Assembly: GCA_002347045.1 (NCBI GenBank)
Contig: DDWV01000001.1
Coordinates: forward strand, 553,201 to 614,743
Origin: Candidatus Collierbacteria bacterium UBA2277
GTDB taxonomy: Bacteria; Patescibacteriota; Microgenomatia; UBA1400; MFAQ01
Length of the DNA: 61,543 nt
Direction of reading: 5' to 3'
The notes below the pieces were generated by a model, which worked only from the letters and a program-made list of their open reading frames with translations, searched no databases and was not told the origin of the DNA. Made by a program: the position numbers and the translations under genes. Below are positions 33,469 through 53,109 of this stretch, in pieces. The stretch's first letter is position 1. The number at the start of each line of letters is the position of its first letter.

Positions 33469-34578
33469 ATGAAAATCATTGTAAAAACAGAAGATCTAAA
33501 AAAGAGTTTGATTATTGCGGGGAGAGGTGTAAGCGCTAGACCTCAACTTCCGATTTTGTCTGGAGTATTGCTCAAAGCAACAAATAGTGAAGTATCTTTG
33601 ATTGCAACAGATTTGGAAGTAAGTTTTTGGGTGAAGTTGCAAGCGAAGGTTGAAGAAGAGGGAGAGGTTGTAATTCCGGCGAAGTTGTTTTTGGAGCTTG
33701 TGTCTAGTTTTCCTTCGGGGAATATTACTTTGGTATCTGAAAAAAACTTGATTAAGGTGAGTGTCGATGGAATTAATTCTGAAATTGTGGGTCAGGGGGT
33801 CGATGATTTTCCAAGTATTCCAAGAGCCAACAAAGCTCAAGTGGTAATTCGAAGTGGTGATTTTCGACAGAAAGTGGATAGGGTTTGTGTAAGTGCAGCA
33901 AAAGATGACACAAGACCTGTTTTGACTGGGGTTTTATGGGAAATTGACGAAGATAAAGTTTCTTTGGTAGCTACGGATGGATATCGTTTGAGTGTTGACA
34001 AAATTAAACTGACAAAGACGGTATTGGAAAAAGAAAATCGACTAATATTACCGGCACGTTCTTTACAAGAAATTTCGAAGATGTTAGGGGAAACAGGCGT
34101 AGATGAGTTTTCTTTGGAGTTTGATAAAAAGAATCAACAAGTAATTTTTCGAGTGGGTGATGTTGAGGTGGCTTCTCGATTGATTGCAGGCGAGTTTCCT
34201 CCTTATCAACAGATAATGCCCAATACTTACTCAACAAGAGCAGTGTTTGGCAGAGAAGAGACATTAGAGGCTGTTAAAAGGGCAAGTTTGTTTGCTAGGG
34301 ACAATGCAAATATCATCAAGATGATGATTGAGAAAGACAAAGTAACAGTAATGGCTGAAAGTACACAGATAGGGACAAGCGTAACTTCTTTTGAAGCAAA
34401 GACTGAAGGAGAAGACATAACAGTGGCTTTTAATGCTAGATATTTGTTGGATTATTTGGGAACTTGTACTTCCGAAAAAGTTGCTTGGGAAACTGAGGGT
34501 GAGTTGAAACCAAGTACATTTAGAAGTGAAGAAGATGAAACTTGGATACAAGTAATTATGCCTGTTCGAGTTCAGTAG
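33469..34578 (+). CDS. dnaN: DNA polymerase III beta sliding clamp
   Basis: 369 aa with the three-domain clamp pattern (ILSGVLL, ATDGYRL, FNARYLLD), directly after dnaA. Confidence 0.93.
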   Translation: MKIIVKTEDLKKSLIIAGRGVSARPQLPILSGVLLKATNSEVSLIATDLEVSFWVKLQAKVEEEGEVVIPAKLFLELVSSFPSGNITLVSEKNLIKVSVDGINSEIVGQGVDDFPSIPRANKAQVVIRSGDFRQKVDRVCVSAAKDDTRPVLTGVLWEIDEDKVSLVATDGYRLSVDKIKLTKTVLEKENRLILPARSLQEISKMLGETGVDEFSLEFDKKNQQVIFRVGDVEVASRLIAGEFPPYQQIMPNTYSTRAVFGREETLEAVKRASLFARDNANIIKMMIEKDKVTVMAESTQIGTSVTSFEAKTEGEDITVAFNARYLLDYLGTCTSEKVAWETEGELKPSTFRSEEDETWIQVIMPVRVQ

Positions 34579-35552
34579 TTCATGGGTGCAACATAATAGA
34601 CATTTTCACTGAAAGGAGTGAGATCGTCTATCTTGATGTTTCCAGAGATTAAATAAACGGGAGAGAGAGAATTGTTTATTTGGATATAAGCTGGTTCGAC
34701 TTTTTTGACGGTAAACAAAACAACAGACCCTAAGTCGAAAATACCTTGTTTATCTACCTTGAGAGGAGTGATTTTTATAAAGAAATCAAGAGATAAATTT
34801 TTGAGCTCTTCGAGATTGAATTGTTGAGAGTTTTGACTTATGTTGGACTCTAGGTAACCATTAATGATAGTGAGTGTTTTAACACTGAGATCTCTGTATA
34901 GATAGAGAATTATGGTGTGTGGTTGAGTTAGGTTTGAAGGGACTACCGGGTATCCATTGACTAATTGATCCAGATAAACTTGAGCTATTTCACCTGCTTC
35001 GGCGGAAGTTGGGTTTGAATAGAGATTGTCTTTAAAATAAGTGATTGAGGCTACTCTAAAAGTTTGTTTTGGAAGAATTTGCTCTACTATAGCAAGGGCT
35101 TTTTCACCAACTTCTGATGATTGAAATATATTGCCTGTTTGTGGTTTTTTTAGGTTTTCGTAGTTTAGAGTTTGTTCTTTTGGAGCATAAAGAAGTATTT
35201 GTTCTGAGGTTTTCCAAATTAAAACATTTTGATTTAGTGTTTGTTTGTTTTGTGAAGTGAGACCTAATTTTCCGGCAACGTCCTCAGCAAGTTTGTCACT
35301 GAGAAGGAATGAAGAAATATATAAAGGGTATTTGTCGTCTGGATTTATAGTGCTTACTTGTGACCAATCTATCATCAGTGTGGGTTGTTTGTAGGTTCCC
35401 TTTGAGTGAGGTGTAGGAAATTGTGATTTAACAGAAGGTAAAATTGGTGTGGTAGTTGTTTTTTTTGTGACCTGAGGAAGAAATATATAAAGAACAATGG
35501 TGATGATGGCTAAAGCTCCGAGAAGGTAATATAGACTATTTTTTTTATTCAT
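34572..35552 (-). CDS. bitopic membrane protein, last gene of the VirB4 operon (hypothetical; VirB8-position candidate)
   Basis: A single N-terminal TM (LYYLLGALAIITIVLYIFL) and an exodomain of about 290 aa. The gene is 17 nt downstream of the M23 gene. Confidence 0.45.
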   Translation of the reverse strand: MNKKNSLYYLLGALAIITIVLYIFLPQVTKKTTTTPILPSVKSQFPTPHSKGTYKQPTLMIDWSQVSTINPDDKYPLYISSFLLSDKLAEDVAGKLGLTSQNKQTLNQNVLIWKTSEQILLYAPKEQTLNYENLKKPQTGNIFQSSEVGEKALAIVEQILPKQTFRVASITYFKDNLYSNPTSAEAGEIAQVYLDQLVNGYPVVPSNLTQPHTIILYLYRDLSVKTLTIINGYLESNISQNSQQFNLEELKNLSLDFFIKITPLKVDKQGIFDLGSVVLFTVKKVEPAYIQINNSLSPVYLISGNIKIDDLTPFSENVYYVAPMNY

Positions 35553-35569
35553 TTTCTTTGTTTATCTTA

Positions 35570-38155
35570 CTATGGCTGATTACAGTTAAATGTTTCGCCA
35601 TTACAGCAGCCTTCATCGATTTGGAAACCTCCGGCTGGACAAGAGTTGTATGGCACATTTCCAATGTAACCAAGATGAAGATGTGGTCCTGTGCTGTTCC
35701 CTGTGTTACCAGAAAGTCCTATTACTTGACCGGCAGTGACTGATTCACCTGTTCCGACAGAAAGACTTACAAAATGACCATATATTATTTTGAAAGTTTC
35801 ACCTGAATCAGTTTGAGCTTCGATAATAACATGGTTTCCGTAACCGGAATCACTGTTTATAGCGAGAATTACAGTGCCGTCTGTCATACTTTTTATAGGA
35901 GTACCTGTGACCATAGAGAAGTCAGCTGATTCACTGATTCCACCATGGTGAGTGCAAATAGCGACGTTTGGACCTTGAGTAACGGTGTGAATGCCGTCGA
36001 ATGGCCAAGGCATGTTGGCACAGTTGATGGGCATGGAAGTGACTGTTTGGGATTGTAACTGGACAAGAGTAGATATAAGGGGAGCGACAACTATAGATGT
36101 GATGTAAAAGAAGAAACCAATTAGTGTACCAAGGAGAATAGTAACAGTGGCTGATTTGGCGGCAACATAGGTGGCAGAAATGAGAATTCCGAACCAAGCA
36201 ATTGTTCCTCCAATAGCAGTGGTTGCTCCTGCTACTGGAACTGCGAGTAAGTCTCTGAATTTTATTTTTTCTCCATACACGGAAGTGGCAGTTTCTTGAA
36301 CTGCCTTGTAAGCAGCGCCAATAGTTTTTTCGGCGACAAATAAAACTGTTTGAACTACGACGTCGAGTAATAAACCTACTCCAGGAGCTAGACCATTGAC
36401 TGATTCAAGGGCAATACTAATTCCCAATTTTGTAGATGCCCAGGTGGCTGCTTTGACAGCCATTTTGGAAAGAGCTTCTTTGGAAAGAGTAGCGATACCT
36501 CCCTTGAGTCCTTCGGAAAGAAGGGTATTGGCGGCATTTTTGATGACTTCGTTACCAATTTTTTCTACTAGACGGGTGGCTATTTGTTCGCCGGCTTTTT
36601 TGCCTACCCAGCTTTTGAAGGTTCCCCAAGGATTGGATATAGCTCTAAAAGTGCCCTTGAAACCGCCTGGGAGTTTGTCTGAGATGCCGTTGAAAAAACG
36701 AGAGACAGAGTTAAATCCTCCTTTGGCTCCCGATAGTCCTTTGGAGATGTCTTTCCCTAGTTTGGACTCGGAGATTTTTCGAATCTGAACGCCGGCAGAA
36801 GTAAAAAGATCTTTGCGTTTATTGTAGAGAATACCTAAGGAAGACTCGGGATTTTTTTTGGCAAAGCTTCTTACGTCGGCAAGAAGTTTGGGTGTTAGGT
36901 CTCTGCCATAGAGGAGAATTGCTTGTGGTGAAAAGCTTGGGTCTTGAATTTGGGATTTGCCGATAATGGCGGCAGCTTGTTCTGCTTCGTAGCCAGAGTA
37001 AGCACGAAGCGCTCCTGGCATGTCGTTTCTTATGGCATCTTCTAAAAGTTTGGCGTCATCCATGGGAGAAAAAACACGAGGTTGGATACCATTTGACTGA
37101 AGGTTGTTGTGGATTCTGGAAACTTCTTTGTTTGCATCGTCGATGAGATCTTTAAGATCAGGATCCATTGAGAGTCTGGTTTCTCGACTCTTTTCAAAGT
37201 CTTTGAAAGATTCTGTTTGTTTGGCTACTTGATTTATTAGACGATTTGCTTGGTTTTCATTGAAGGCGGCAAGATGTTGATTTTCTTCGATTAGCTCTTG
37301 AATTTGTTCTGTTTTTTGTTGCCTTCTTAGCTCTTGAATTTGTTCTTCATTGTCAAAAATTTTTTCGTTGTTTTCTTGTGTGATTTTTTCTGAGGATTGA
37401 ATTTCGTGGAAAACACTGGAGACAAAACCTCCAGGAATGGTAGCTAAATTATTTTTATCTGAGTCAGATAGGGTGGAGAAGTCTATAAGGAGAGTGGATG
37501 ATTGAATTGCGGTGTCTATGTCAATTATGCCTATGGTGTTTAGCTCTACCGCAGAAGTGATGATTTGATTTTGAACTTGAGGAGAAAGCTTCGTAAAACC
37601 TTTGTAGGTAAAGGCTACTTCTTTGACTGCAGAGTATGACTTAGACAGAGCTTGGGTTTTGGAACTTGACTTGGGAGAGCCTAGTGAGACAAATACATCA
37701 TCAGTATTTTTGAATCTTTCTCTATTAGATCTCCTCTTTTCTTTGTTTTGTAGAGCTTGTTCTTTTATCTTGGAGTGAGCAATGGCTATTTTTACCTGTT
37801 CGGCTACTGACCTTTGGCTATTGGATTTAATTTCTTTTTCAGCTAGTGTTGCCTGGTTTTGACGGTACTCTTCAACCATGGATTCTAGTTCTGGAGGAAT
37901 TGATGAACCTTCCTTAACTTGTTCAGAAGACTTCTGTTGAAGATTATTTATTTGGTCTTCTACAGCTGATACCGGCAGCTTTTTTAGGAAAAGAGAGTAA
38001 CTTTTGGAAAAGAAGTATTTTTTACCAAAATATGCATCAGCTATAGAAAAAGTTTCCCAGTCTTTTTTTGTGAGTGAGTCTTCTTTTTTTTGAGCAACGA
38101 TTAGATCAATTACTTGATTTAGTTGTTGAATTAGTTCTGCATTTTCTGATTCCAT
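35570..38155 (-). CDS. T4SS-associated cell-wall hydrolase: long coiled-coil N-terminal region, TM bundle and C-terminal M23 peptidase domain
   Basis: C-terminal THHGGISESAD (HxnD), YGNHVIIE and GPHLHLGY (HxH). Hydrophobic segments lie about 140 aa upstream of these. The N-terminal half is rich in K/E/Q. Confidence 0.7.
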   Translation of the reverse strand: MESENAELIQQLNQVIDLIVAQKKEDSLTKKDWETFSIADAYFGKKYFFSKSYSLFLKKLPVSAVEDQINNLQQKSSEQVKEGSSIPPELESMVEEYRQNQATLAEKEIKSNSQRSVAEQVKIAIAHSKIKEQALQNKEKRRSNRERFKNTDDVFVSLGSPKSSSKTQALSKSYSAVKEVAFTYKGFTKLSPQVQNQIITSAVELNTIGIIDIDTAIQSSTLLIDFSTLSDSDKNNLATIPGGFVSSVFHEIQSSEKITQENNEKIFDNEEQIQELRRQQKTEQIQELIEENQHLAAFNENQANRLINQVAKQTESFKDFEKSRETRLSMDPDLKDLIDDANKEVSRIHNNLQSNGIQPRVFSPMDDAKLLEDAIRNDMPGALRAYSGYEAEQAAAIIGKSQIQDPSFSPQAILLYGRDLTPKLLADVRSFAKKNPESSLGILYNKRKDLFTSAGVQIRKISESKLGKDISKGLSGAKGGFNSVSRFFNGISDKLPGGFKGTFRAISNPWGTFKSWVGKKAGEQIATRLVEKIGNEVIKNAANTLLSEGLKGGIATLSKEALSKMAVKAATWASTKLGISIALESVNGLAPGVGLLLDVVVQTVLFVAEKTIGAAYKAVQETATSVYGEKIKFRDLLAVPVAGATTAIGGTIAWFGILISATYVAAKSATVTILLGTLIGFFFYITSIVVAPLISTLVQLQSQTVTSMPINCANMPWPFDGIHTVTQGPNVAICTHHGGISESADFSMVTGTPIKSMTDGTVILAINSDSGYGNHVIIEAQTDSGETFKIIYGHFVSLSVGTGESVTAGQVIGLSGNTGNSTGPHLHLGYIGNVPYNSCPAGGFQIDEGCCNGETFNCNQP

Positions 38156-38163
38156 GGAGAAAA

Positions 38164-40020
38164 CTAGACTGTTTGTTGTTTATTACGAGCCTCGAGAATC
38201 TCTGAAGGTTTACTTGTAGCAAGAGCGTGCTCATCAGGAGATGATATCACTCTTATGGCAACATGATTTTGACCGGCAAAGAAAATCCCTTCACCAACAC
38301 CGGCTGAAAGAAGAAGTTGTTTTTCTCCTTGTGAAAGGAAGAATACTTCTGATATTTGATTGATTGCAGCTGATGATTGTTTGAGAAGAATTTTTAGTGC
38401 TGAGTTAGTAATTATTGCTTTACCGTAAGGAGAAGCTAAAAAATCATCAACGTTTTGAGAAATAACAGTGACTCCAAGATAGTATTTTCGAGCCCTTTTG
38501 ACAAAGCCTTGAAGTATTTTGGCTGAGTCTTCGTAGCGCATGAGATACCAAGCCTCGTCGACGATAAGCATACGTTTGCGTAGATCTTTTCTAGTTTGAG
38601 TCCAGACGAAGTCTAGAATCATAAACATAACAATGGGTCGAATTTCATCGGCAAGATCTCGAAGTGAAAAAACAGTAACAGGAGCATCGATGTTTATATT
38701 TGATTGTTGGTCAAAGATGCCTTTAATAGCACCCATGACGAAACGCTCAAGTCTGGCTGAAAGTACTTTGGCTGTTGGATCTTCCATACCAATAAGGGCT
38801 CTATATAGATCTTCCATGCGAGGAGGTTCTTGGATGTGAGTTGTGGGATCTTCAGTGATGTTTTTTTGACGATAAGTAAGAACAAGAGCGCGGTTCATCG
38901 TGGCTGCTTCCATAGGACCCATTTCGCCAATCATGATCTTGAGAAGAGACATGAGGAAGAGATATTTGTATCCCATTTCATCTTCGGTACTTTCTTGGGG
39001 TCTGGCAATTTGAAATGGATTTATTTTGTTTGGAGATGTTACTGAAAATGAAATATAGTTTCCTCCAACTGCTTTTGTAACCATTTCATATTCATTTTCT
39101 GGGTCGAGAATAATTATTTGAGTGTCGAACATAAGAGAACGAAGAATCTCAAGCTTGATGGCATAAGATTTTCCTGCTCCAGAAGTGGCTAAAACTAGCA
39201 TATTGGCGTTTTCTAGCGAGAAACGATCGAAAATAACTAATGAGTCGTTGTGGGCATTGATGCCGTAGAGAATACCTTGGTTGTCTGAGAGTTCTGAAGA
39301 AGTAAAAGGGAATGTTGTAGAGAGAGCTGTCGTGTCCATGTTTCTGGTAATCATTAGTTTGTCTTTACAGTAAGGAAGAGTGGTTTTGAAGGCATCTTCC
39401 ATTGAAAGAGAAGCTATTTTACTAATGATTAGAAGAGAGGCAAGCATGCTTTGAACTTGGGCTGTGACGGTGTTGAGCTCTTTTTCGGACTCTGCAGAGA
39501 TACTGATATAAAGAGAGAATTGAAAGAATCTTTCGGCACCTTTTACAAGTTGAGCTTGAAGGGTTTTTGCATCTTCGAGAGCTGCTTCTGTGGCAGCTTG
39601 GGGAATACGACCCCTTTCGATGTCGGTGTTTATTTCGGCTTCCATTTCTGCTAGACGACGTCTTAGACTGTCGAGAGTGTCTTTTGAGTCACTGGGATAA
39701 ACGTACATGGAGATATCAAGAGAGTGATTGAAGTTTATGAGTGGAGCAAGCCAGTTGGCTGAGACATAGCGAGGGTAACCAGTGACAAACAGAGTGCGGA
39801 CATAGTTATCATCGATTTTAACGTGAGAGAAATCTACTTCAATAGCTGATGGAGCAATGACATCTTGAATTGAAGTGGCTGTAGCAGTGTCCTTTATGGC
39901 TGAAAGAGGAGCTCGGGGTTTTTCTTGTGGTGTGTAGGTAGCATTTGAAGAATTCTCTTTTGTTGGGGCTGGGTTTGGATCCTTGGCCTTTTTGCCAAGT
40001 GAAAATAGATTGAGGGCCAT
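38164..40020 (-). CDS. virB4: VirB4/TrbE/PrgJ-type type IV secretion ATPase
   Basis: Walker A VLATSGAGKSYAIK and Walker B MLIVDEAWYLM. The N-terminal domain pattern is IAPSAIEVDFSHVKIDDNYVRTLFVTGYP. It lies adjacent to the PrgI-like gene. Confidence 0.85.
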   Translation of the reverse strand: MALNLFSLGKKAKDPNPAPTKENSSNATYTPQEKPRAPLSAIKDTATATSIQDVIAPSAIEVDFSHVKIDDNYVRTLFVTGYPRYVSANWLAPLINFNHSLDISMYVYPSDSKDTLDSLRRRLAEMEAEINTDIERGRIPQAATEAALEDAKTLQAQLVKGAERFFQFSLYISISAESEKELNTVTAQVQSMLASLLIISKIASLSMEDAFKTTLPYCKDKLMITRNMDTTALSTTFPFTSSELSDNQGILYGINAHNDSLVIFDRFSLENANMLVLATSGAGKSYAIKLEILRSLMFDTQIIILDPENEYEMVTKAVGGNYISFSVTSPNKINPFQIARPQESTEDEMGYKYLFLMSLLKIMIGEMGPMEAATMNRALVLTYRQKNITEDPTTHIQEPPRMEDLYRALIGMEDPTAKVLSARLERFVMGAIKGIFDQQSNINIDAPVTVFSLRDLADEIRPIVMFMILDFVWTQTRKDLRKRMLIVDEAWYLMRYEDSAKILQGFVKRARKYYLGVTVISQNVDDFLASPYGKAIITNSALKILLKQSSAAINQISEVFFLSQGEKQLLLSAGVGEGIFFAGQNHVAIRVISSPDEHALATSKPSEILEARNKQQTV

Positions 40021-40049
40021 AGTTTAAGTATAACCGAAGTAAGATGTTT

Positions 40050-41573: not shown

Positions 41574-41599
41574 AGTGTCTGTGTACTAGTATAGCGAAT

Positions 41600-41630
41600 T
41601 TGTGGAATAAAGGGAGATTGATGATATAAT
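41600..41630 (+). promoter_or_regulatory. candidate promoter of the 731-aa gene
   Basis: Extended -10 TGATATAAT (TATAAT at 41625-41630), with a weak -35-like TTGTGG 19 nt upstream. Confidence 0.35.
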
Positions 41631-41671
41631 TTGGACAGTTATAGGATTGAATTAATTTAATTTAAAGACAT

Positions 41672-45708: not shown

Positions 45709-45763
45709 ATCAGAAATGATTATACATGAATGAGAGGGGTAAGGGCGAAAAGATTTGATGTAT

Positions 45764-48019
45764 TTAGAAGCATTTTAGAGCGTTGAAACGAGTAATGGCT
45801 CTGGTGATAAAAGGAGCATTGTCGACGAAGTAAGACTCTATAGAGTGTTTCCCTGGCTCAGGACAGTAGCCTGCATAACCTACACGACTTTGGGCGGCAT
45901 CGTCGTTGGTCCATTGACTGCATGATGATGGAGAGGTGTTGTCTAGGGTGTAACAAGCTCCTCCTTGACAGCAGGTATTGTCCCCTGTTGCCTTGAAGTA
46001 TTTTTCGAAGTCGGGTGATCTAGCTGAGGTCCACATTTTTAGGGCCTTGGCTGTAGCAAAGACGCCGTCGGCAAAGTTGCAAGGAGAGGTGTTGTTTTTT
46101 TCGCGCGTAGGGTCGATGGCTCTAATAGCACTCCAAAGACCGTTTGTTCCTTCGCCTGCATAGAACCAGTAAGGAATCCAACCAAAAGGTGTCTGAGCGA
46201 CACTTGTTTGGGTGTCATCACAGTTGGGCATTTTACCCCCACACTTACTCCATTCTCTAATGTTTGCATCTGTGTATTGATAGCGTCCCCCAGAGAAAGC
46301 ACCTTCGTTATACATGGTGCCAAAGATAAATGCGGCAGGGACATTGTATGATTCTCCCGCCTTTTGGAGTATTTTGAGAAAGAGATCTGGAACACCTTCG
46401 GGAAAAGCAGAACTCATGGGGTCGTCGATAAGGCCAGGGATTTTTTCTATATTACAGATACCACAGTCTGGATCACTAACGACAACATCGGTAAAGTCAC
46501 CACACGAAGCAGTTTTGTCTTTTGGACAAATAGGTGAGGTTTGTTGAGATTGGGGTACAAGCCAGCAGTTTTGAAGCTGAGCCATAGAGTCTTGAGCAAG
46601 ATTACTCTCACGATAGATGGGTTGGTTAGGATTGCCTATGGTTGCGTTTCCATTTTGGGAAATGGTGTCTGAGATGGGGGCGTTTACTAATGCTTTTGTG
46701 GGTATAGGAACAAAGTCTGGTAGCAGCATTTTGAAAAAAGGTGGATTTTCTTTTGGGTCTCCATTGGCTATGAAGTTATCGAGTATTCTTGCGTAGGGGT
46801 TGTTGAATACAGCGAGAGTTTTTCCGACAGCAGTACCTTTGATTTCATAGATGTTCTCTCCTGGATAGTAGATACAGCCATAAAAAGAACAGTTGTAGTA
46901 ACCTGGGGTTGACTCGACGAACTCACTAACAACAGGAACTCTCACTATTTGTGGGAGAAGAGGGTTTTCTGGGTATGTCCTGGGGGAGTTGAGGTTTGTA
47001 CTAGGTTCCAGACTTGGACAAGAAACTGAAGCTGCGGCATTGATTAAAGCGGTACTGAGAGTAAGTTCATTTGTAGTTGTTGGTAGATTGTCAATTTTTC
47101 TAATCATCCAACTGGTAGTGTAAAAGTTAAGGAGTCCGAGATCTCCTTTTAGGCCTCTAATGAGAGCTGAGAGATATGGAACATTTTCTTTTGTGATGGT
47201 ATCGTTTAGAACAATATAGCTTCGAAGACTGTTAAAGTCGAAAGGAAGGAGGGTGTCATATTGTGCTTTGAGGTCGCTGTCGAGTTCTTTGTATTTAGCG
47301 TAGTAATCTTCACAAACAGGAGATTTCCTAAGACAGTTTGGAAGGTTTGAGTATAGTTTTTTAGTGTCGGTCTCTTTGGTTTTGGAGTTTTCGTCTAGGT
47401 AGTAGTAACTAACTTTGGTTGTATTTGAGTCGGTGTTGGATAGATATAGAGCTTTTATGTTGGCCTGAGTACGACTGTTTAACATTCTCCAGAAAGTGCG
47501 AAATGACTCTCTAGGTATTTCGTCATTGGAGTAAGCCGGTCTATCGAGGAGAGCATTGAATAGATATTTTTGAGCTACTTGATCCGGGTTTATAGATCCG
47601 TAAGTTCCGACATCTGGTCCAAGGAATCCAAGCGTGGCATCGGAAACATTTGTTTGAACTGGAACAGGAATAATGGTTGGGGGTGGAGGTGACATGGCAT
47701 TGACTTTTTCACTGTAAATTACTACGGGTGGGGGGATACAAGTAAGAGGGTATTTTTCTACTTGAGACTCGATCTTTTTTGGGGTAGAGTAGCACTCTCC
47801 GTTTGGAGGATAGACGTTGTTTTTGTCTAGATCTCCACAAGGAAGATTTGAAGGGGTGATGACGGGGGTGAGAGGTTCTGATGAGGTAGAAGTTGAAGTT
47901 GATGTTGTTCCAATAAGGGGATCTGTGGGGTCGATATATGCTGATGAGGAGGTGGCAAAAAGGTTAAAGAATAAGAGAGTTGAGATAAGGCTGGTAAGAA
48001 ATAATTTGGTTTTTACCAC
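45764..48019 (-). CDS. large secreted Cys-rich protein (hypothetical)
   Basis: A GTG start at 48019 gives the signal peptide VKTKLFLTSLISTLLFFNLFATSSSA. A Thr/Ser-rich stretch follows. The C-terminal third is rich in Cys/Trp/Gly. The upstream 92 codons of the ORF-track entry are an out-of-frame read over the preceding pilin gene. Confidence 0.6.
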   Translation of the reverse strand: MVKTKLFLTSLISTLLFFNLFATSSSAYIDPTDPLIGTTSTSTSTSSEPLTPVITPSNLPCGDLDKNNVYPPNGECYSTPKKIESQVEKYPLTCIPPPVVIYSEKVNAMSPPPPTIIPVPVQTNVSDATLGFLGPDVGTYGSINPDQVAQKYLFNALLDRPAYSNDEIPRESFRTFWRMLNSRTQANIKALYLSNTDSNTTKVSYYYLDENSKTKETDTKKLYSNLPNCLRKSPVCEDYYAKYKELDSDLKAQYDTLLPFDFNSLRSYIVLNDTITKENVPYLSALIRGLKGDLGLLNFYTTSWMIRKIDNLPTTTNELTLSTALINAAASVSCPSLEPSTNLNSPRTYPENPLLPQIVRVPVVSEFVESTPGYYNCSFYGCIYYPGENIYEIKGTAVGKTLAVFNNPYARILDNFIANGDPKENPPFFKMLLPDFVPIPTKALVNAPISDTISQNGNATIGNPNQPIYRESNLAQDSMAQLQNCWLVPQSQQTSPICPKDKTASCGDFTDVVVSDPDCGICNIEKIPGLIDDPMSSAFPEGVPDLFLKILQKAGESYNVPAAFIFGTMYNEGAFSGGRYQYTDANIREWSKCGGKMPNCDDTQTSVAQTPFGWIPYWFYAGEGTNGLWSAIRAIDPTREKNNTSPCNFADGVFATAKALKMWTSARSPDFEKYFKATGDNTCCQGGACYTLDNTSPSSCSQWTNDDAAQSRVGYAGYCPEPGKHSIESYFVDNAPFITRAITRFNALKCF

Positions 48020-48048
48020 AAAACAATTATAAACGGAGAAGTAGTTTA

Positions 48049-48399
48049 TTACGAAGGAACTGTGAAAGTGGTGATGTCTGCTCCGGTGAAGTTTTTGATC
48101 AGTATAATGACGAGCCAGGCGACTGAGAGGAGAATGACTCCGATGATGGCCCAGGTAAAAGTTTTCCAGGCAGCGTCGTAGGCTTTGGGGTCGGCACCTG
48201 CCATCATCAAACGGACTCCGGCGATGATGAGCATGCCAACTGCAACAAGGGCGATGAGGCCTGGTGCAGGTTTGATTAAATTTTGGAATAAACATTCAAT
48301 CCCTCGGATCGTGGCGACGCCTTCTGGGGAAACACATTGTGAATTAATGGTGGTCCAGTCTGCAGCATACACTTGGGGTATTAGAGAAAAAGTCATCAT
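48049..48399 (-). CDS. VirB2/TrbC-like T4SS pilin paralog P1 (divergent loop)
   Basis: Leader MMTFSLIPQVYAA, a Cys pair, then TM - MMAGADPKAYDAAWK - TM. I prefer the ATG at 48399. Confidence 0.65.
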   Translation of the reverse strand: MMTFSLIPQVYAADWTTINSQCVSPEGVATIRGIECLFQNLIKPAPGLIALVAVGMLIIAGVRLMMAGADPKAYDAAWKTFTWAIIGVILLSVAWLVIILIKNFTGADITTFTVPS

Positions 48400-48413
48400 G
48401 GAGTAATTATATC

Positions 48414-48439
48414 GCACAAAAAACCCCGGATGTCCGGGG
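48414..48439 (-). terminator. rho-independent terminator between pilin genes P2 and P1
   Basis: CCCCGG-ATGT-CCGGGG stem-loop, with TTTTTTTG following it on the minus strand. Confidence 0.65.
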
Positions 48440-48463
48440 CTTTTGATTTTTAACACTAAATAC

Positions 48464-48805
48464 TTAGTAAGGTTTTGGGATAGTGAAGTTTCCACCGAAG
48501 ACGTCAACTCCAAAGAAGTAGGAGATGAGCTGCATAAGTGCCCAAGAAGCTGCGATGATGGCAAGACCAACTAGAGCGGCAGTGATACGATTTCTGGCAT
48601 TTTCTGTTTTGCCTTTGTCTCCACCTGAGGTGAGCCATTCGATACCACCCATGACTAAAAAGGCGAAAGTGAGGATACCAGCAACCATGAAGGCTACTGA
48701 GATAGCACTTGAGATTAATTTACCGATATCAGTAATTTTCATACCAACTGGCTGGTTTACACCGATGGTAGAAGTGGCTGCGTATGCTTGAGGAATTAGG
48801 GACAT
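48464..48805 (-). CDS. VirB2/TrbC-like T4SS pilin paralog P2
   Basis: Leader MSLIPQAYAA, then TM - GGIEWLTSGGDKGKTENARNRI - TM. Confidence 0.75.
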   Translation of the reverse strand: MSLIPQAYAATSTIGVNQPVGMKITDIGKLISSAISVAFMVAGILTFAFLVMGGIEWLTSGGDKGKTENARNRITAALVGLAIIAASWALMQLISYFFGVDVFGGNFTIPKPY

Positions 48806-48864
48806 ATTTTTTCTTTTTTATTAATTTAAGACTAGGCTTATTATTATTGTTATTTGCTTTCTTG

Positions 48865-49194
48865 TCAACTGCCGAGGGGATTGTCGGTGCAGAGAGCACT
48901 GAGGTCGATACCGAAGAAATAGAGAACTAGGGTGAATACGGCATAGCTGGCGGCAATAATGGTGAGACCAATTAGGGCATTGCTAATTCTTTTTTGAGCT
49001 ATCTCAACGCGGCCTTTATCTCCTGAAGACGTTAGCCACTCCATACCTCCTAGAACAAGAAAGATAAAGAAAACAATGGCGGCGAGGATATAGGCAATAC
49101 TGATGGCATTACTGACTAAGTTCCAGATACAAGTGAAACCAAAAAATCCTCCTTTGGTGACTTCTTTTCCGATGTCGACTACTTGTTGGTTCAT
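48865..49194 (-). CDS. VirB2/TrbC-like T4SS pilin paralog P3
   Basis: TM - GGMEWLTSSGDKGRVEIAQKRI - TM. Confidence 0.72.
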   Translation of the reverse strand: MNQQVVDIGKEVTKGGFFGFTCIWNLVSNAISIAYILAAIVFFIFLVLGGMEWLTSSGDKGRVEIAQKRISNALIGLTIIAASYAVFTLVLYFFGIDLSALCTDNPLGS

Positions 49195-49586
49195 AAGTTG
49201 TTGGGGAAAATAGGTTGAAGAATATTAATTTTGAAAGCGTTTTCGATAAAAAGGGCAATTGCATAAGAACCGACGAGGATGGCGAGGCCAATAAAAGCAT
49301 TGCTAATCATCTTTTGGGCTGTTTCAACACGGCCTTTGTCTCCGCCTGCAGTGAGCCATTCGATACCGCCCCAGATTAGAAAAATTATGAAGGCTACTCC
49401 GCCTAGAGTGACTACGGCACGCCAAAGTATAGCAATATAGAAAGCTAGCCCTTCACCTGGAGTTTTGTTGGCAATTTCGAGAGGTAAGGCTGCGTTTTTT
49501 ATCTCGTTGGACATTCTTACTCCAACACCATCTGCTCCTCCTGAGTCTGCTGCGGCTAAGTATTTTAGATTATCAGTTGAGATCAT
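49191..49586 (-). CDS. VirB2/TrbC-like T4SS pilin paralog P4
   Basis: TM - GGIEWLTAGGDKGRVETAQKMI - TM, with a 4-nt overlap with P3. Confidence 0.72.
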   Translation of the reverse strand: MISTDNLKYLAAADSGGADGVGVRMSNEIKNAALPLEIANKTPGEGLAFYIAILWRAVVTLGGVAFIIFLIWGGIEWLTAGGDKGRVETAQKMISNAFIGLAILVGSYAIALFIENAFKINILQPIFPNNL

Positions 49587-49981
49587 GGTATGGATGAGTT
49601 GTTAAATAAAGTGTTGAATGGGTTGAGAATGTCTATGCCTAAGACTCCGCCGACTACTCCTGTAACAAAAAGGCCAGCGACAATGGCAACTAAACCAATA
49701 ACACCTTGAGTCATCTGAGTTTTGGCCTCTTCAACTTTACTTTTGTCTCCGCCTGCAGTGGCCCATTTTAGACCTCCGAGAGTAAAGTAGATGACGAAAG
49801 CTAGACCTCCGACAACAGTAAGGGTGGTGACAACGGAGGAAAGAATGTTGCTAAACTGAGCCTTGGTGGTAGCTTCACTGACATCTTTGGTTTCGAAACC
49901 AATTGGCCCTATACCTTTGATACCTCCGACATCAATTGGTGCGGCATGAACGGACTTTATGATTGATTTTAATAATGACAT
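49583..49981 (-). CDS. VirB2/TrbC-like T4SS pilin paralog P5
   Basis: TM - GGLKWATAGGDKSKVEEAKTQM - TM, with a 4-nt overlap with P4. Confidence 0.72.
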   Translation of the reverse strand: MSLLKSIIKSVHAAPIDVGGIKGIGPIGFETKDVSEATTKAQFSNILSSVVTTLTVVGGLAFVIYFTLGGLKWATAGGDKSKVEEAKTQMTQGVIGLVAIVAGLFVTGVVGGVLGIDILNPFNTLFNNSSIP

Positions 49982-49982
49982 T

Positions 49983-50354
49983 TTATGGTGTAACGCTTGA
50001 AAATTTTGGTATTAAAATGGCGGTGAAGTCTCCGAAAAGGATCTTACTAAAGATGGCGATGATAACAAAACTAGCAGCCATGATAACAAGACCAACTAGA
50101 CTCATCATTATTTGTTGATTTGCCTCTTGAATTTTACCCTTGTCTCCGTTGGACGTGATAAATTTTAGTCCTCCGCTAAGGAACTGCCACAAAGTGAAAA
50201 GACCTCCGATAATGATAATAAAACGAATGATGGCGGTGATGTAGTCTCCAGTTTGGGCTACTTTTGAGGGGATTCCTGCGGGAAGATTTATAGTACCTAT
50301 AACATCGGCGGCAAAAACGGGAGAAATGATTTGATTGAGTAAGCTGCTAATCAT
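49983..50354 (-). CDS. VirB2/TrbC-like T4SS pilin paralog P6
   Basis: Leader ...SPVFAAD, then TM - GGLKFITSNGDKGKIQEANQQI - TM. Confidence 0.72.
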   Translation of the reverse strand: MISSLLNQIISPVFAADVIGTINLPAGIPSKVAQTGDYITAIIRFIIIIGGLFTLWQFLSGGLKFITSNGDKGKIQEANQQIMMSLVGLVIMAASFVIIAIFSKILFGDFTAILIPKFSSVTP

Positions 50355-50359
50355 ATTTA

Positions 50360-50674
50360 TTAAAAGAATTTAAAGCCTAGTATAGAGCCTAGAAGTCTGG
50401 TGATCATAAAGGCTGCTACGACGAGAACTAATCCAATTATGCCATAGTTTAGCATGTGTTGTGCTTGAGTTGTTTTACCCTTGTCTCCGGCTGCTGTAAT
50501 ATAGGTAAAACCAGAGATAATAATAGTAATGAAAGCAACTATTCCAGAGATAATTAAGACGTTGTAAATAATGGGATTAACTAGGGTGTCAAGCTTGGCA
50601 TCTTGACCTCCAAGGGCTTCAGCTGGTTTATAAATAGTATCTAAATTGAGAGCGAGAACTTGTTTGACTAACAT
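50360..50674 (-). CDS. VirB2/TrbC-like T4SS pilin paralog P7 (first gene of the array)
   Basis: TM - SGFTYITAAGDKGKTTQAQHML - TM. Confidence 0.72.
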   Translation of the reverse strand: MLVKQVLALNLDTIYKPAEALGGQDAKLDTLVNPIIYNVLIISGIVAFITIIISGFTYITAAGDKGKTTQAQHMLNYGIIGLVLVVAAFMITRLLGSILGFKFF

Positions 50675-53107: not shown

Positions 53108-53109
53108 AT

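What the first reader, a model, noticed from the sequence alone, without database searches (positions are those of the whole stretch)
34572..50674. Hybrid type IV secretion-like locus: monoderm-type channel parts plus a multi-pilin array and several orphan giants, with no relaxase
Two minus-strand operons flank one plus-strand orphan gene.

Operon A (41573 down to 34572) contains:
- a PrgI/VirB3-like protein
- a VirB4-N-domain-like protein
- a VirB4 ATPase
- an 861-aa TM protein with a C-terminal M23 hydrolase, in the role of VirB1/PrgK
- a bitopic protein in the position where VirB8-like parts sit

Operon B (50674 down to 43864) contains:
- seven tandem VirB2/TrbC-like pilin paralogs
- a 751-aa secreted Cys-rich protein
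- a 614-aa polytopic VirB6/TrbL-like protein

Two further pilin paralogs lie at 52757-53499, and a coupling-protein-like ATPase lies at 13166-16294.

I see no VirB7/9/10 outer-membrane core, no VirB11, and no relaxase, integrase or oriT-like features. The machine therefore does not look like a conjugative element. Gram-positive-type T4SSs normally lack VirB2 pilins, while this locus has nine. A pilus-bearing, wall-spanning apparatus in a CPR-like, probably host-attached cell would be a candidate for cell-cell contact, effector delivery or DNA/nutrient uptake. The composition as a whole is not one I recognise as characterised.
Basis: partly seen in the sequence, partly recalled or inferred. Interest (0 to 1): 0.8.

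Follow-up and report, generated by a model that had tools for sequence, protein, structure and literature searches.

The report
Patescibacterial chromosomal type IV secretion locus
This is a real, non-mobile type IV secretion gene cluster with many pilin genes in a Collierbacteria-like ultrasmall bacterium, but the same kind of system was described in 2023 and 2025, so it is a typical new example, not a discovery.

Summary
At 34572-50674 there are two minus-strand operons. They encode PrgI/VirB3, a split-off VirB4 N-domain (TrsD-like), a VirB4 ATPase, an 861-aa membrane protein with an M23 peptidase, and a bitopic protein. They also encode seven tandem PF18895 pilins, a 751-aa secreted Cys-rich protein and a 614-aa polytopic protein. 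Two more pilins lie at 52757-53499. No relaxase, integrase or transposase is found anywhere in the window. The locus abuts dnaN-dnaA, among housekeeping genes.

The claim that this composition is uncharacterised does not hold. This is the Patescibacteria-clade T4SS. It was shown to be essential in Southlakia epibionticum (Wang 2023) and surveyed in 2025 (PMC12102498). That survey already reported MPF-FATA-like VirB4, TrsD, PrgI, arrays of 2-11 VirB2-like pilins, no relaxase, and proximity to dnaA.

What I add:
- Gene order is conserved across Collierbacteria.
- Each of the seven pilins has a one-to-one orthologue (54-93% identity, against 21-58% between paralogues). This argues for non-redundant subunits.
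- The 751-aa protein folds confidently with no significant structural match. Two sub-threshold hits suggest a lysozyme-like C-terminal domain.
- The plus-strand "orphan" belongs to a fast-evolving, acidic family without transmembrane segments that always sits in the same slot. It is a speculative candidate substrate.

The VirB6 and VirB8 labels remain unproven.

The parts
34572..35552 (-). 326-aa bitopic protein (N-terminal TM anchor, about 290-aa exported domain). It sits last in operon A, at the position PrgL (VirB8-like) holds in pCF10.
   Evidence: One TM segment at residues 7-25. The family was found in 36 ORFs of the 80 Microgenomatia T4SS loci by iterative HMM search. There are no Pfam, NCBIfam or PDB sequence hits. 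The AlphaFold model is poor (pLDDT 53.8) and Foldseek gives nothing significant. hhalign against PrgL is negative. The protein is fast-evolving: 33% identity to its L081 orthologue, where VirB4 is 87%.
35570..38155 (-). 861-aa protein: a roughly 580-aa charged N-terminal region, three hydrophobic segments at about residues 589-682, and a C-terminal M23 metallopeptidase. It is the cell-wall hydrolase in the VirB1/PrgK role.
   Evidence: Peptidase_M23 E 6.5e-21. MepM/ShyA-type NCBIfam hits. An HLH motif is present. It sits directly downstream of virB4, as PrgK does in pCF10 and the peptidase SEML1_0007 does in S. epibionticum. BLASTP finds no similarity to PrgK.
38164..40020 (-). VirB4 ATPase (618 aa) lacking the usual N-terminal domain.
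   Evidence: NF045971 (conju_CD1110) 368 bits against a cutoff of 325, covering model positions 168-733 of 752. P-loop_TraG E 1.5e-28. Walker A (GAGKS) and Walker B (VDEAW) motifs are present. Identity to Microgenomatia relatives is 75-92%.
40050..40703 (-). 217-aa TrsD-like protein, i.e. the VirB4 N-terminal domain encoded as a separate gene.
   Evidence: Matches the N-terminal parts of VirB4 models (Mbov_0397 positions 111-280, E 2.4e-8; CD1110 positions 25-126; VirB4_CagE positions 18-118) and matches TrsD NF041427 at E 4.9e-4, below its cutoff. Identity is 71-88% in Collierbacteria-type loci and it is always adjacent to virB4. hhalign against the neighbouring VirB4 is negative, as expected if the two are complementary pieces.
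40704..41573 (-). PrgI/VirB3-like protein (289 aa): PrgI domain with two TM segments, a Pro/Thr-rich linker and a small C-terminal beta-rich domain.
   Evidence: PF12666 PrgI 29.7 bits against a cutoff of 27. A weak NOMO-like beta-sandwich hit at residues 222-272. TM segments at 31-49 and 55-73. It lies directly upstream of the TrsD-like gene and virB4 in almost all of the 80 loci.
41672..43867 (+). 731-aa acidic protein with no signal peptide or TM segment, divergently transcribed between the two operons. It belongs to a fast-evolving, Collierbacteria-specific family that always occupies this slot. It is a speculative candidate substrate or accessory factor.
   Evidence: No TM segment and net charge -11. 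No Pfam, NCBIfam or PADLOC hit in it or in 10 slot proteins from other loci. An opposite-strand, almost always TM-less, usually acidic ORF of 716-966 aa is present in most Collierbacteria-type loci that cover the slot. Similarity between members is mosaic, and 10 members are linked by iterative HMM search. All five genome hits lie inside a T4SS locus. The last 30 residues carry a net charge of +6, and the mean over 18 slot proteins is +3.2 against a background of 0.28 (sd 2.6).
43864..45708 (-). 614-aa polytopic membrane protein (signal peptide, about 190-aa outside domain, six further predicted TM segments). It is the candidate VirB6-like channel subunit.
   Evidence: Topology. It is conserved in 19 loci, with 26 invariant columns in the 18-sequence alignment. 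It sits on the far side of the slot gene from prgI; PrgH directly precedes prgI in pCF10, and the VirB6-like SEML1_0013 lies upstream of prgI in S. epibionticum. There is no sequence support: profile against PDB gives 0 hits, Pfam gives 0 hits on 18 members, and hhalign against PrgH gives probability 0.25.
45764..48019 (-). 751-aa secreted Cys-rich two-module protein. The N-terminal module (about residues 70-500) has a fold with no match. The C-terminal all-alpha Cys-rich module (about 520-751) has an invariant Glu572 and is possibly lysozyme-like.
   Evidence: Signal peptide; 20 of the 28 Cys counted for the 843-aa over-extended ORF lie in the 751-aa form (sequence). phmmer against 1.84 billion representatives gives 208 relatives, and the C-module is fused to many different N-terminal regions. 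E572, C600, C647, N648, D651, C700 and W703 are invariant in 68 sequences. AlphaFold mean pLDDT is 84.4. Foldseek against PDB and BFVD gives no hit at E<=0.001. The only high-probability hit is the muramidase Tse3 (probability 0.87, E 0.17). The profile's top PDB sequence hit is goose-type lysozyme, at the Glu region, E 0.77.
48049..48399 (-). VirB2-like pilin 1 (116 aa).
   Evidence: PF18895 43.4 bits. Orthologues are 53-63% identical.
48464..48805 (-). VirB2-like pilin 2 (113 aa). It is the most conserved pilin and the candidate major subunit.
   Evidence: PF18895 33.9 bits. Orthologues are 84-93% identical. A near-consensus promoter-like site lies at 48868-48840.
48865..49194 (-). VirB2-like pilin 3 (109 aa, no leader peptide).
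   Evidence: PF18895 32.8 bits. Orthologues are 61-69% identical.
49191..49586 (-). VirB2-like pilin 4 (131 aa).
   Evidence: PF18895 27.2 bits. Orthologues are 60-78% identical.
49583..49981 (-). VirB2-like pilin 5 (132 aa).
   Evidence: PF18895 40.4 bits. Orthologues are 54-75% identical.
49983..50354 (-). VirB2-like pilin 6 (123 aa).
   Evidence: PF18895 21.7 bits, below the cutoff (E 2.2e-4). It shares the GG..(W/F/Y).T(S/A).GDKGK motif. Orthologues are 64-75% identical.
50360..50674 (-). VirB2-like pilin 7 (104 aa).
   Evidence: PF18895 42.3 bits and a weak TrbC hit. Sub-threshold hit to the Mycoplasma ICE pilin-like family NF045849, E 1e-6. The orthologue is 69% identical.
52757..53107 (-). 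VirB2-like pilin 8 (116 aa), separated from the array by two isoprenoid-synthesis genes.
   Evidence: PF18895 30.9 bits.
53110..53499 (-). VirB2-like pilin 9 (129 aa, classical signal peptide).
   Evidence: PF18895 21.8 bits, below the cutoff (E 2e-4). It aligns with the other pilins.

Best explanation
This locus is the core chromosomal, non-conjugative type IV secretion system typical of Patescibacteria, here in a Collierbacteria-like member of Microgenomatia. It descends from monoderm (MPF-FATA-type) conjugation machinery.

Likely mechanism:
- The VirB4 ATPase works together with its separately encoded N-domain (TrsD-like). The pair is tethered to the membrane by PrgI/VirB3 and powers assembly.
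- The 614-aa polytopic protein forms the membrane channel or assembly platform, in the VirB6 role.
- The membrane-anchored M23 peptidase opens the producer's peptidoglycan. The secreted 751-aa protein, through its possibly lysozyme-like C-domain, may contribute or may attack the host cell wall.
- The nine VirB2-like hairpin pilins are extracted from the membrane and polymerised into a wall-spanning pilus or conduit made of several non-redundant subunits. Pilin 48464-48805 is the probable major subunit.
- The apparatus contacts the host bacterium on which the cell lives. It mediates an exchange that the cell needs for growth. The most likely form of that exchange is protein export to the host, but uptake of host molecules is nearly as likely.

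What is shown: gene content, family membership of VirB4, TrsD-like, PrgI, M23 and the pilins, chromosomal context, absence of mobility genes in the window, and conserved synteny.

What comes from the literature: the homologous cluster is essential in S. epibionticum.

What is inferred: the VirB6 role, pilus formation, heteromeric composition, and the direction and identity of the cargo.
For: Family hits: the VirB4 passes the curated CD1110-family cutoff, and PrgI, M23 and seven of the nine PF18895 pilins score above Pfam thresholds. The split VirB4 N-domain is shown.

Context: rnpA-yidC-jag, dnaA and dnaN lie on one side and polyprenyl synthase and UppS on the other. Among the 57 main window ORFs scanned, none is a relaxase, integrase or transposase, and there are no att-like repeats.

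Conservation: prgI, the TrsD-like gene and virB4 are adjacent in nearly all of the 80 loci from Microgenomatia-like genomes, with dnaN-dnaA alongside wherever the contig reaches them. The full order pilins-751-614-slot-prgI-trsD-virB4-M23-326-dnaN-dnaA is conserved, in whole or in the part covered, in Collierbacteria-type loci.

The layout matches the essential S. epibionticum cluster: dnaA, dnaN, small exported proteins, a lysozyme-like hydrolase, a C-terminal peptidase, VirB4, 0009, PrgI, 0011, an NTF2-like protein, a VirB6-like protein and six pilins. All of these are essential except the NTF2-like protein. It also matches the published survey.

The pCF10 order prgH-prgI-prgJ-prgK-prgL parallels 614...prgI-(trsD)-virB4-861-326.

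Pilins: seven one-to-one colinear orthologues are 54-93% identical, against 21-58% between paralogues. Every pilin gene in the S. epibionticum array is individually essential. Both points argue for non-redundant subunits.
Against: - No pilus or secretion has been observed for any patescibacterial T4SS.
- The VirB6 and VirB8 assignments failed every sequence and profile test, and the one fold test was uninformative.
- No membrane-anchored coupling protein is present. The only T4CP-like ATPase is 18 kb away, has no TM segment and is fused to NUDIX, and its best hit is to a defence-system family. Recruitment of cytoplasmic substrates is therefore unexplained.
- The lysozyme-like call for the 751-aa protein rests on two sub-threshold hits.
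- Only 61.5 kb was examined, so a relaxase elsewhere in the genome cannot be excluded.
Confidence: 0.85

Rival explanations
1. The apparatus is an uptake conduit. The pilus and channel import host-derived molecules (nucleotides, lipids, peptides or DNA) into the metabolically poor epibiont. It does not export effectors.
For: - There is no adjacent membrane-anchored coupling protein to feed cytoplasmic substrates.
- T4SSs without a T4CP include the ComB DNA-uptake system (established knowledge).
- The VirB4 gives weak hits to the archaeal DNA-import ATPases CedB and CedD.
- The 2025 review explicitly raises uptake through a pilus conduit.
- Patescibacteria lack most biosynthetic pathways.
Against: - In S. 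epibionticum, competence depends on ComEC, and a comEC deletion is viable while the T4SS is essential. DNA uptake for nucleotides is therefore not the essential role.
- No T4SS is known to import small molecules.
- A ComFC-like gene is present separately in this window.
Confidence: 0.3
2. It is an ordinary or decaying integrative conjugative element whose relaxase, integrase and attachment sites lie just outside the stated locus.
For: The VirB4 is closest to conjugative CD1110-type and Mycoplasma ICE-type ATPases. A VirD4-superfamily ATPase exists 18 kb away. tRNA-Cys and tmRNA genes, which are common integration sites, are in the window.
Against: - None of the 57 main window ORFs scanned is a relaxase, integrase, transposase or excisionase.
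- There are no flanking direct repeats.
- The locus is embedded between dnaN and isoprenoid-synthesis genes.
- The same genes sit in the same chromosomal place across Collierbacteria, and the core trio does so across the Microgenomatia-like loci, with VirB4 75-92% identical. This is the conservation of a vertically inherited core gene.
- GC content does not stand out.
Confidence: 0.03
3. The pilin-like proteins do not form an external pilus. They are short membrane hairpins that line or gate the channel within the envelope, as may be the case for the pilin-like protein of wall-less Mycoplasma ICEs. Host contact is made by type IV pili encoded elsewhere.
For: - Pilin 7, the only pilin scanned with NCBIfam, gives a sub-threshold hit (E 1e-6) to the Mycoplasma ICE 'pilin-like' family.
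- Type IV pili are the demonstrated adhesion organelles in Saccharibacteria.
- Nine conserved, distinct paralogues would fit a stoichiometric multi-subunit channel.
Against: - The proteins match the VirB2/TrbC-type family PF18895, and three also hit TrbC weakly.
- They have the two-helix hairpin with a basic loop typical of polymerising conjugative pilins.
- Most have cleavable-looking leader peptides.
- The cell has a wall that must be crossed.
Confidence: 0.15

Closest known systems
T4SS of Candidatus Southlakia epibionticum ML1 (SEML1_0004-0019; Wang et al. 2023, Cell)
   Same: - It lies next to dnaA-dnaN.
- It has VirB4, an adjacent small conserved protein (TrsD-like) and a roughly 300-aa PrgI.
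- A large hydrolase with a C-terminal peptidase domain lies directly downstream of virB4.
- Small exported proteins lie between the hydrolases and dnaN.
- It has a polytopic VirB6-like protein and an array of PF18895 pilins (six there, seven plus two here).
- It has no relaxase and no adjacent coupling protein.
   Different: - It belongs to a different class (Saccharimonadia against Microgenomatia).
- Its pilins are on the opposite strand to the ATPase operon.
- It has a separate 643-aa lysozyme/CHAP protein, an NTF2-like (VirB8-fold) protein and a 998-aa same-strand protein between prgI and VirB6.
- This window instead has the 751-aa Cys-rich protein and the divergently transcribed 731-aa acidic protein.
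- Essentiality has been shown only in S. epibionticum.
Patescibacteria-clade T4SS as surveyed by Quinonero-Coronel et al. 2025 (Microb Genom, PMC12102498)
   Same: Every headline feature matches: MPF-FATA-related VirB4, TrsD, PrgI, tandem VirB2 arrays (2-11 genes, abundant in Microgenomatia, about 25% mean identity), no relaxase, T4CP homologues far from virB4, and dnaA/dnaN/rnpA nearby.
   Different: - The survey reports VirB6 as scarce and VirB8 as nearly absent in Microgenomatia, and VirB3 as mostly unlinked to virB4 there.
- In the 80 loci examined here, a PrgI homologue directly precedes the TrsD-like gene and virB4 almost everywhere.
- Conserved candidate VirB6-position and PrgL-position genes exist but cannot be recognised by sequence.
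- The survey suggests that pilin arrays serve antigenic or host-range variation. The one-to-one orthology found here favours fixed, non-redundant subunits.
pCF10 Prg/Pcf conjugative T4SS of Enterococcus faecalis (MPF-FATA prototype)
   Same: Both have a CD1110-family VirB4 and a PrgI family protein. The gene order polytopic protein - PrgI - VirB4 - roughly 870-aa wall hydrolase - small bitopic protein is shared.
   Different: - pCF10 has a relaxase, MobC, a membrane T4CP (PcfC) and the adhesins PrgB and PrgC. It has no VirB2 pilins, and its VirB4 is one piece.
- This locus has no sequence similarity to PrgH, PrgK or PrgL, has a split VirB4 and nine pilins, and is chromosomal and immobile.
Mycoplasma ICE conjugation module (CDS15-CDS17; NCBIfam Mbov_0395 and Mbov_0397 families)
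   Same: It is a monoderm system. Its VirB4 model is the second-best hit for this VirB4 and the best hit for the TrsD-like protein. Its small 'pilin-like' protein family is hit by pilin 7.
   Different: All of these hits are below the curated cutoffs. The Mycoplasma elements are mobile ICEs with a DDE transposase and a T4CP, in wall-less cells, and have no hydrolases.
VirB2 paralogue arrays of Bartonella and Anaplasma VirB T4SSs
   Same: They carry several tandem, divergent VirB2 genes in an effector-translocating, non-conjugative T4SS (cited).
   Different: Those are diderm MPF-T systems with a VirB7/9/10 core. Their paralogues are thought to serve antigenic variation. Here each paralogue is conserved as an orthologue across species.

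Membership tests
Patescibacteria-clade chromosomal T4SS (Wang 2023; Quinonero-Coronel 2025) | VirB4 ATPase related to the MPF-FATA class | tested here: met
   NF045971 (CD1110 family) 368 bits against a cutoff of 325. P-loop_TraG E 1.5e-28.
Patescibacteria-clade chromosomal T4SS (Wang 2023; Quinonero-Coronel 2025) | TrsD-like protein and PrgI/VirB3 encoded next to virB4 | tested here: met
   PrgI PF12666 scores above its cutoff. The 217-aa protein hits VirB4 N-domain models and hits TrsD below its cutoff. The genes are adjacent in the window and in almost all of the 80 related loci.
Patescibacteria-clade chromosomal T4SS (Wang 2023; Quinonero-Coronel 2025) | Array of PF18895 VirB2-like pilins near virB4 | tested here: met
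   Seven tandem pilins plus two nearby; seven score above the Pfam cutoff. Alignment.
Patescibacteria-clade chromosomal T4SS (Wang 2023; Quinonero-Coronel 2025) | No relaxase; core chromosomal location, often by dnaA/dnaN; patescibacterial genome | tested here: met
   No mobility genes among the 57 main window ORFs scanned. dnaN abuts the locus. The closest relatives are Collierbacteria and other Microgenomates MAGs. Only the 61.5-kb window could be checked.
Patescibacteria-clade chromosomal T4SS (Wang 2023; Quinonero-Coronel 2025) | Required for host-dependent (epibiotic) growth | not testable with these tools
   Shown only for S. epibionticum by Tn-seq.
Conjugative element (ICE or plasmid) with an MPF-FATA T4SS | Relaxase (MOB) and oriT | tested here: not met
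   No relaxase family hit in any window ORF scanned. oriT was not searched for separately.
Conjugative element (ICE or plasmid) with an MPF-FATA T4SS | Membrane-anchored VirD4/TcpA-type coupling protein | tested here: not met
   The only candidate (13166-16294) has no TM segment and is fused to NUDIX. It scores 37 bits against a cutoff of 250 on the CD1115 model, and its best PADLOC hit is mad8.
Conjugative element (ICE or plasmid) with an MPF-FATA T4SS | Integrase or excisionase, att repeats, variable presence between genomes | tested here: not met
   No integrase. No flanking repeats. The chromosomal position is conserved across Collierbacteria.
Diderm VirB/D4-type (MPF-T) T4SS | Outer-membrane core VirB7/VirB9/VirB10 and the VirB11 ATPase | tested here: not met
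   No such Pfam or NCBIfam hits for any window protein scanned.
VirB6/TrbL/PrgH family (for the 614-aa protein) | Sequence or profile homology to VirB6, TrbL or PrgH | tested here: not met
   Pfam gives 0 hits for 18 family members. The profile against PDB sequences gives 0 hits. NCBIfam gives 0 hits. hhalign against PrgH gives probability 0.25.
VirB6/TrbL/PrgH family (for the 614-aa protein) | Polytopic membrane protein with five or more TM helices, encoded upstream of VirB3/VirB4 | tested here: met
   Signal peptide plus six further predicted TM segments. The position parallels prgH and SEML1_0013.
VirB8/PrgL/TraM family (for the 326-aa protein) | Bitopic protein with an NTF2-like extracytoplasmic domain | tested here: inconclusive
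   The bitopic topology is met. The model is too poor to judge (pLDDT 53.8). Foldseek finds no VirB8-like hit. The profile against PDB and against PrgL is negative.
Lysozyme-like / lytic transglycosylase superfamily (for the C-terminal module of the 751-aa protein) | Lysozyme-like alpha-rich fold with a catalytic Glu at the end of a helix | tested here: inconclusive
   Glu572 is invariant and follows helix 562-571 in a confident all-alpha module. Foldseek hits Tse3 muramidase at probability 0.87 but E 0.17. The profile's top PDB sequence hit is goose-type lysozyme at E 0.77. There is no Pfam hit.

The most novel reading that the evidence does not exclude
The divergently transcribed 731-aa protein (41672-43867) belongs to a fast-evolving, acidic family with no signal peptide and almost no predicted TM segments. 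The family has mosaic similarity and a positively charged C-terminal tail, and it is fixed in one slot inside the T4SS locus of Collierbacteria. It could be the first candidate translocated substrate (effector) of a patescibacterial T4SS. It would be delivered through a pilus built from several obligatory, non-redundant VirB2-like subunits and helped by a secreted muramidase with a new fold (the 751-aa protein).
Probability: 0.15. Interest if true: 0.7.

Novelty: new member of a known kind. Interest (0 to 1): 0.33.

Why it matters
Patescibacteria make up a large share of bacterial diversity and live attached to host cells. Their T4SS is the only T4SS known to be essential to its bearer, and what it transports is unknown.

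This locus adds nothing new in kind. It does provide a clean Microgenomatia reference layout and some testable details:
- It shows which conserved but unrecognisable genes sit at the VirB6 and PrgL positions.
- It shows that the pilin paralogues are ancient, individually conserved subunits. They do not look like a fast-varying repertoire.
- It shows that a confidently folded secreted protein without structural relatives belongs to the machine.
- It shows that a rapidly diverging protein without export signals is locked into the locus, which makes it a candidate cargo.

Tried and rejected
1. ICE hypothesis. I scanned 57 main window ORFs with Pfam and searched for flanking direct repeats. No mobility genes or att-like repeats turned up. 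Rejected.

2. VirB6 homology of the 614-aa protein. All tests were negative:
- Pfam on the protein itself and on 18 orthologues.
- NCBIfam.
- A profile against all PDB sequences.
- hhalign against pCF10 PrgH.

3. VirB8 homology of the 326-aa protein.
- A profile against PDB and hhalign against PrgL were negative.
- Two database searches returned only five usable homologues because the family diverges too fast.
- The resulting five-sequence AlphaFold model was poor, and its Foldseek result was meaningless.

4. hhalign of the TrsD-like family against the neighbouring VirB4 family found nothing. The link came instead from NCBIfam full-length VirB4 models.

5. BLASTP of the M23 protein against PrgK showed no similarity.

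6. Pfam on 10 slot proteins from other loci, and PADLOC on the 731-aa protein, gave no hits.

7. Foldseek of the 751-aa model against BFVD viral structures gave nothing.

8. Promoter and terminator scans were no richer than shuffled sequence.

9. A genome-wide locus search with the full 10-member slot-family alignment was impossible, because the alignment had no conserved stretch. A four-member sub-alignment found only five loci, all inside T4SS clusters.

Full report
**1. The observation**

Pfam assigns the following:
- 40704-41573 is a PrgI family protein (29.7 bits, cutoff 27).
- 38164-40020 hits P-loop_TraG/AAA_10, with a weak CagE_TrbE_VirB N-terminal hit.
- The C-terminus of the 861-aa protein (35570-38155) hits Peptidase_M23 (E 6.5e-21).
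- All nine small ORFs hit PF18895 T4SS_pilin. Seven are above the gathering threshold and two are at E about 2e-4.

NCBIfam adds two points:
- The VirB4 passes the curated cutoff of the CD1110-family VirB4 model (368 bits against 325). That family is the MPF-FATA type that includes pCF10 PrgJ. The match covers only model positions 168-733.
- The adjacent 217-aa protein matches the missing N-terminal part of several VirB4 models (Mbov_0397 positions 111-280, E 2.4e-8; CD1110 positions 25-126). It also matches TrsD below its cutoff.

Simple hydropathy analysis confirms the stated topologies:
- The 326-aa protein is bitopic.
- The 614-aa protein has a signal peptide plus six further predicted TM segments.
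- The 861-aa protein has a cluster of hydrophobic segments ahead of the M23 domain.
- The plus-strand 731-aa protein has no TM segment and no signal peptide.

Two corrections are needed. The mechanical 843-aa ORF is over-extended, and the 751-aa form with a signal peptide fits the orthologue alignment. The first pilin is 116 aa (48049-48399).

**2. Context and mobility**

The rest of the window is housekeeping:
- MetRS fragment, TatD, glycosyltransferases, GAPDH, PGK and TGT.
- GroES/GroEL, an SBP, VanW, TsaD, LeuRS and L25.
- RNase H, Jag, YidC, RnpA, DnaA and DnaN.
- After the locus: polyprenyl synthase, UppS, SpoIID, SmpB, tmRNA and ComFC.

No relaxase, integrase, transposase, excisionase, VirB7/9/10 or VirB11 was detected. 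The only sizeable direct repeats lie inside the pilin array. The locus abuts dnaN.

VirB4 relatives at 75-92% identity come from MAGs that, where a source names them, are almost all Collierbacteria, Woesebacteria or Microgenomates. The best 80 genome loci are Microgenomatia-like MAGs, although several carry obviously wrong automatic taxon labels.

**3. Synteny**

The core genes are conserved across the 80 loci. prgI, the TrsD-like gene and virB4 are adjacent almost everywhere. dnaN-dnaA lies next to them wherever the contig reaches that far.

In the Collierbacteria-type loci the order is conserved, in whole or in the part of it that each locus covers. It runs: pilin array, 751-aa protein, 614-aa protein, opposite-strand large gene, prgI, trsD-like, virB4, M23 protein, 326-aa protein, dnaN, dnaA.

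Conservation is very uneven. Against the closest full-length relative (L081), identities are:

| Gene | Identity to L081 |
|---|---|
| Pilin 2 | 93% |
| VirB4 | 87% |
| TrsD-like | 83% |
| DnaN | 81% |
| PrgI | 65% |
| 614-aa protein | 53% |
| M23 protein | 47% |
| 731-aa protein | 36% |
| 326-aa protein | 33% |
| 751-aa protein | 29% |

The surface-exposed parts and the 731-aa protein therefore evolve much faster than the motor.

**4. What is already known**

A literature search found that this system type is published.

Wang et al. 2023 (PMC10633639) found by Tn-seq that an "apparent T4SS" (SEML1_0006-0019 in their text; neighbouring SEML1_0004-0005 are also essential) is essential for epibiotic growth of Southlakia epibionticum. 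They noted that:
- it resembles Gram-positive conjugative T4SSs;
- it has an essential series of pilins;
- it lacks recognisable coupling and relaxase proteins.

Their tables show the layout: dnaA, dnaN, recF, two small exported proteins, a lysozyme/CHAP protein, a 1113-aa protein with a C-terminal peptidase fold, VirB4, 0009, PrgI, 0011, an NTF2-like protein, a VirB6-like protein and six PF18895 pilins. The parallel with this window is clear.

- a monophyletic VirB4 clade allied to MPF-FATA;
- abundant TrsD and PrgI;
- 441 VirB2 arrays of 2-11 genes, especially in Microgenomatia and Saccharimonadia;
- almost no relaxases;
- T4CP homologues far from virB4;
- proximity to dnaA, dnaN and rnpA.

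A 2025 review lists these systems as a recognised newcomer (PMC12857230).

**5. The unassigned parts**

*614-aa protein.* It has the right topology and position for VirB6. PrgH directly precedes prgI in pCF10, and SEML1_0013 lies upstream of prgI in S. epibionticum. No sequence-based test supports homology. This agrees with the published remark that VirB6 is "scarce" in Microgenomatia because of divergence.

*326-aa protein.*
- Its family is present in 36 ORFs of the 80 loci, either after the hydrolase or before prgI.
- It occupies PrgL's position relative to pCF10.
- Its profile finds nothing in the PDB and does not match PrgL.
- Database searches yielded too few homologues, so the AlphaFold model is poor (pLDDT 53.8) and Foldseek is uninformative.

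The VirB8 assignment is undecided. The protein may equally correspond to the small exported proteins SEML1_0004 and SEML1_0005.

*751-aa protein.*
- phmmer against 1.84 billion representatives finds 208 relatives. It shows two modules, and the C-terminal module (about residues 500-751) is fused to many different N-terminal regions.
- In 68 sequences, Glu572, four Cys, Asn648, Asp651 and Trp703 are invariant.
- AlphaFold with a 100-sequence alignment gives a confident model (mean pLDDT 84.4).
- Foldseek finds no match at E<=0.001 in the PDB or BFVD.
- The only high-probability hit is the type VI muramidase effector Tse3 (probability 0.87, E 0.17). The family profile's top PDB sequence hit is goose-type lysozyme, around the invariant Glu (E 0.77).

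Together with the Glu placed just after a helix in an all-alpha module, this makes a lysozyme-like muramidase domain plausible but unproven. If correct, the locus carries the same peptidase-plus-lysozyme pair as S. epibionticum.

**6. The plus-strand "orphan"**

Most Collierbacteria-type loci that cover the slot between the 614-aa gene and prgI hold an opposite-strand gene of 716-966 aa there. The product is almost always TM-less and usually acidic.
- Pairwise similarity is low and mosaic. It involves the N-terminus with some members, the middle with others, and full length with only one.
- Iterative HMM search nevertheless links ten members into one family.
- None has a Pfam, NCBIfam or PADLOC hit.
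- All five genome loci recovered with a sub-family alignment lie in this same slot.
- The proteins are acidic overall, but their last 30 residues are on average +3.2, against a background of 0.28 (sd 2.6) for other long ORFs in the loci. This recalls the basic C-terminal signals of VirB/D4 substrates. The members are related to each other, however, so the statistic is weak.

A protein without export signals that evolves as fast as the exposed parts and is locked into the locus is a reasonable candidate substrate. That is inference only. The lack of a bona fide coupling protein argues against it.

**7. The pilins**

The nine proteins share a two-helix hairpin with the loop motif GG..(W/F/Y).T(S/A).GDKGK. 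Most also have short leaders ending in Ala-Ala.
- Paralogues are 21-58% identical.
- Each of the seven arrayed pilins has a colinear one-to-one orthologue in other Collierbacteria at 54-93% identity, with the second-best hit far weaker.

The array is therefore ancient and each member is under purifying selection. In S. epibionticum every pilin gene is individually essential. Both facts favour non-redundant roles, such as a major pilin plus minor pilins or a heteromeric filament. They do not favour the antigenic-variation idea offered in the survey.

Pilin 48464-48805 is the most conserved. A near-consensus promoter-like site precedes it.

Pilin 7 and the VirB4 pieces give sub-threshold hits to Mycoplasma ICE families. 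VirB2-like proteins may thus already have existed in a monoderm lineage, which weakens the "hybrid" framing. This is a lead and has not been tested.

**8. The distant ATPase**

The 1042-aa protein at 13166-16294 has Walker motifs and weak TrwB, TraG-D_C and CD1115 hits. It has no TM anchor and carries a C-terminal NUDIX domain. Its best PADLOC hit is the defence-associated mad8 family (E 4.9e-19). The survey notes that such T4CP homologues are common, usually unlinked, and non-essential in S. epibionticum. I do not count it as part of the machine.

**9. Verdict**

The finding is real and correctly read as a non-conjugative, pilin-rich, monoderm-type T4SS. It is a typical member of an already described and genetically validated system class.

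The remaining interest lies in details:
- the divergent candidates for the VirB6 and PrgL positions;
- the fixed set of seven to nine pilin orthologues;
- the structurally unmatched 751-aa protein;
- the fast-evolving slot protein.

Interest is modest (0.33), and the novelty category is "new member of a known kind".

Noticed in passing
window 1-61543; dnaA 31783-33165; DnaA-box-like 9-mers at 31728 and 33166-33197: GC skew stays positive across the whole window, on both sides of dnaA-dnaN. This is so even though a perfect DnaA box lies upstream of dnaA and three near-perfect boxes cluster in the dnaA-dnaN spacer. No skew sign change marks the presumed origin. That bears on the published idea that the T4SS benefits from origin-proximal gene dosage.
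   Followed up: partly
window 13166-16294 (minus strand), with neighbours 16314-16925 and 16967-17815: A 1042-aa VirD4/TraG-superfamily ATPase with no TM segment is fused to a C-terminal NUDIX hydrolase domain. Its best PADLOC hit is mad8 (E 4.9e-19). It sits next to an SPFH/Band 7 protein and a nucleotidyltransferase. It may be a defence or nucleic-acid-handling module and not a T4SS coupling protein.
   Followed up: partly
window 48840-48868 (minus strand): A near-consensus sigma-70-like promoter (TTGACA-17-AATAAT, 11 of 12 matches) lies inside the pilin array, just upstream of the most conserved pilin (48464-48805). This suggests separate high expression of a major subunit.
   Followed up: no
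window 40704-41573 (minus strand): The PrgI/VirB3-like protein is 289 aa, about three times the usual length. It has a Pro/Thr-rich linker and a C-terminal domain with a weak NOMO-like beta-sandwich hit. The S. epibionticum PrgI is similarly long (300 aa).
   Followed up: no
L001-L080, compared with PMC12102498 section 13: In the Microgenomatia-like loci fetched here, a PrgI homologue directly precedes the TrsD-like gene and virB4 almost everywhere. The 2025 survey reports only 22.6% of Microgenomatia VirB3 homologues as linked to virB4. The difference is probably a matter of detection sensitivity.
   Followed up: partly
window 8561-9157, 53540-55258 and 59433-60119: A second, free-standing M23 peptidase. 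A SpoIID-like lytic transglycosylase immediately beside the two extra pilins. A ComFC-like competence protein.
   Followed up: no
window 48049-50674 and 52757-53499: Most pilins carry very short N-terminal leaders ending in Ala-Ala (for example MSLIPQAYAA). These leaders lack a typical charged n-region. One pilin (48865-49194) has no leader, and one (53110-53499) has a classical signal peptide. This hints at different processing routes.
   Followed up: no
L002, L004, L006, L008 and others (record titles): Several public MAG records carrying this Collierbacteria-type locus are labelled 'uncultured Pseudomonadales', 'Spirochaetia', 'Gammaproteobacteria', 'Methanoperedens' or 'Limisphaerales'. 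These are evidently mislabelled or contaminated bins.
   Followed up: no
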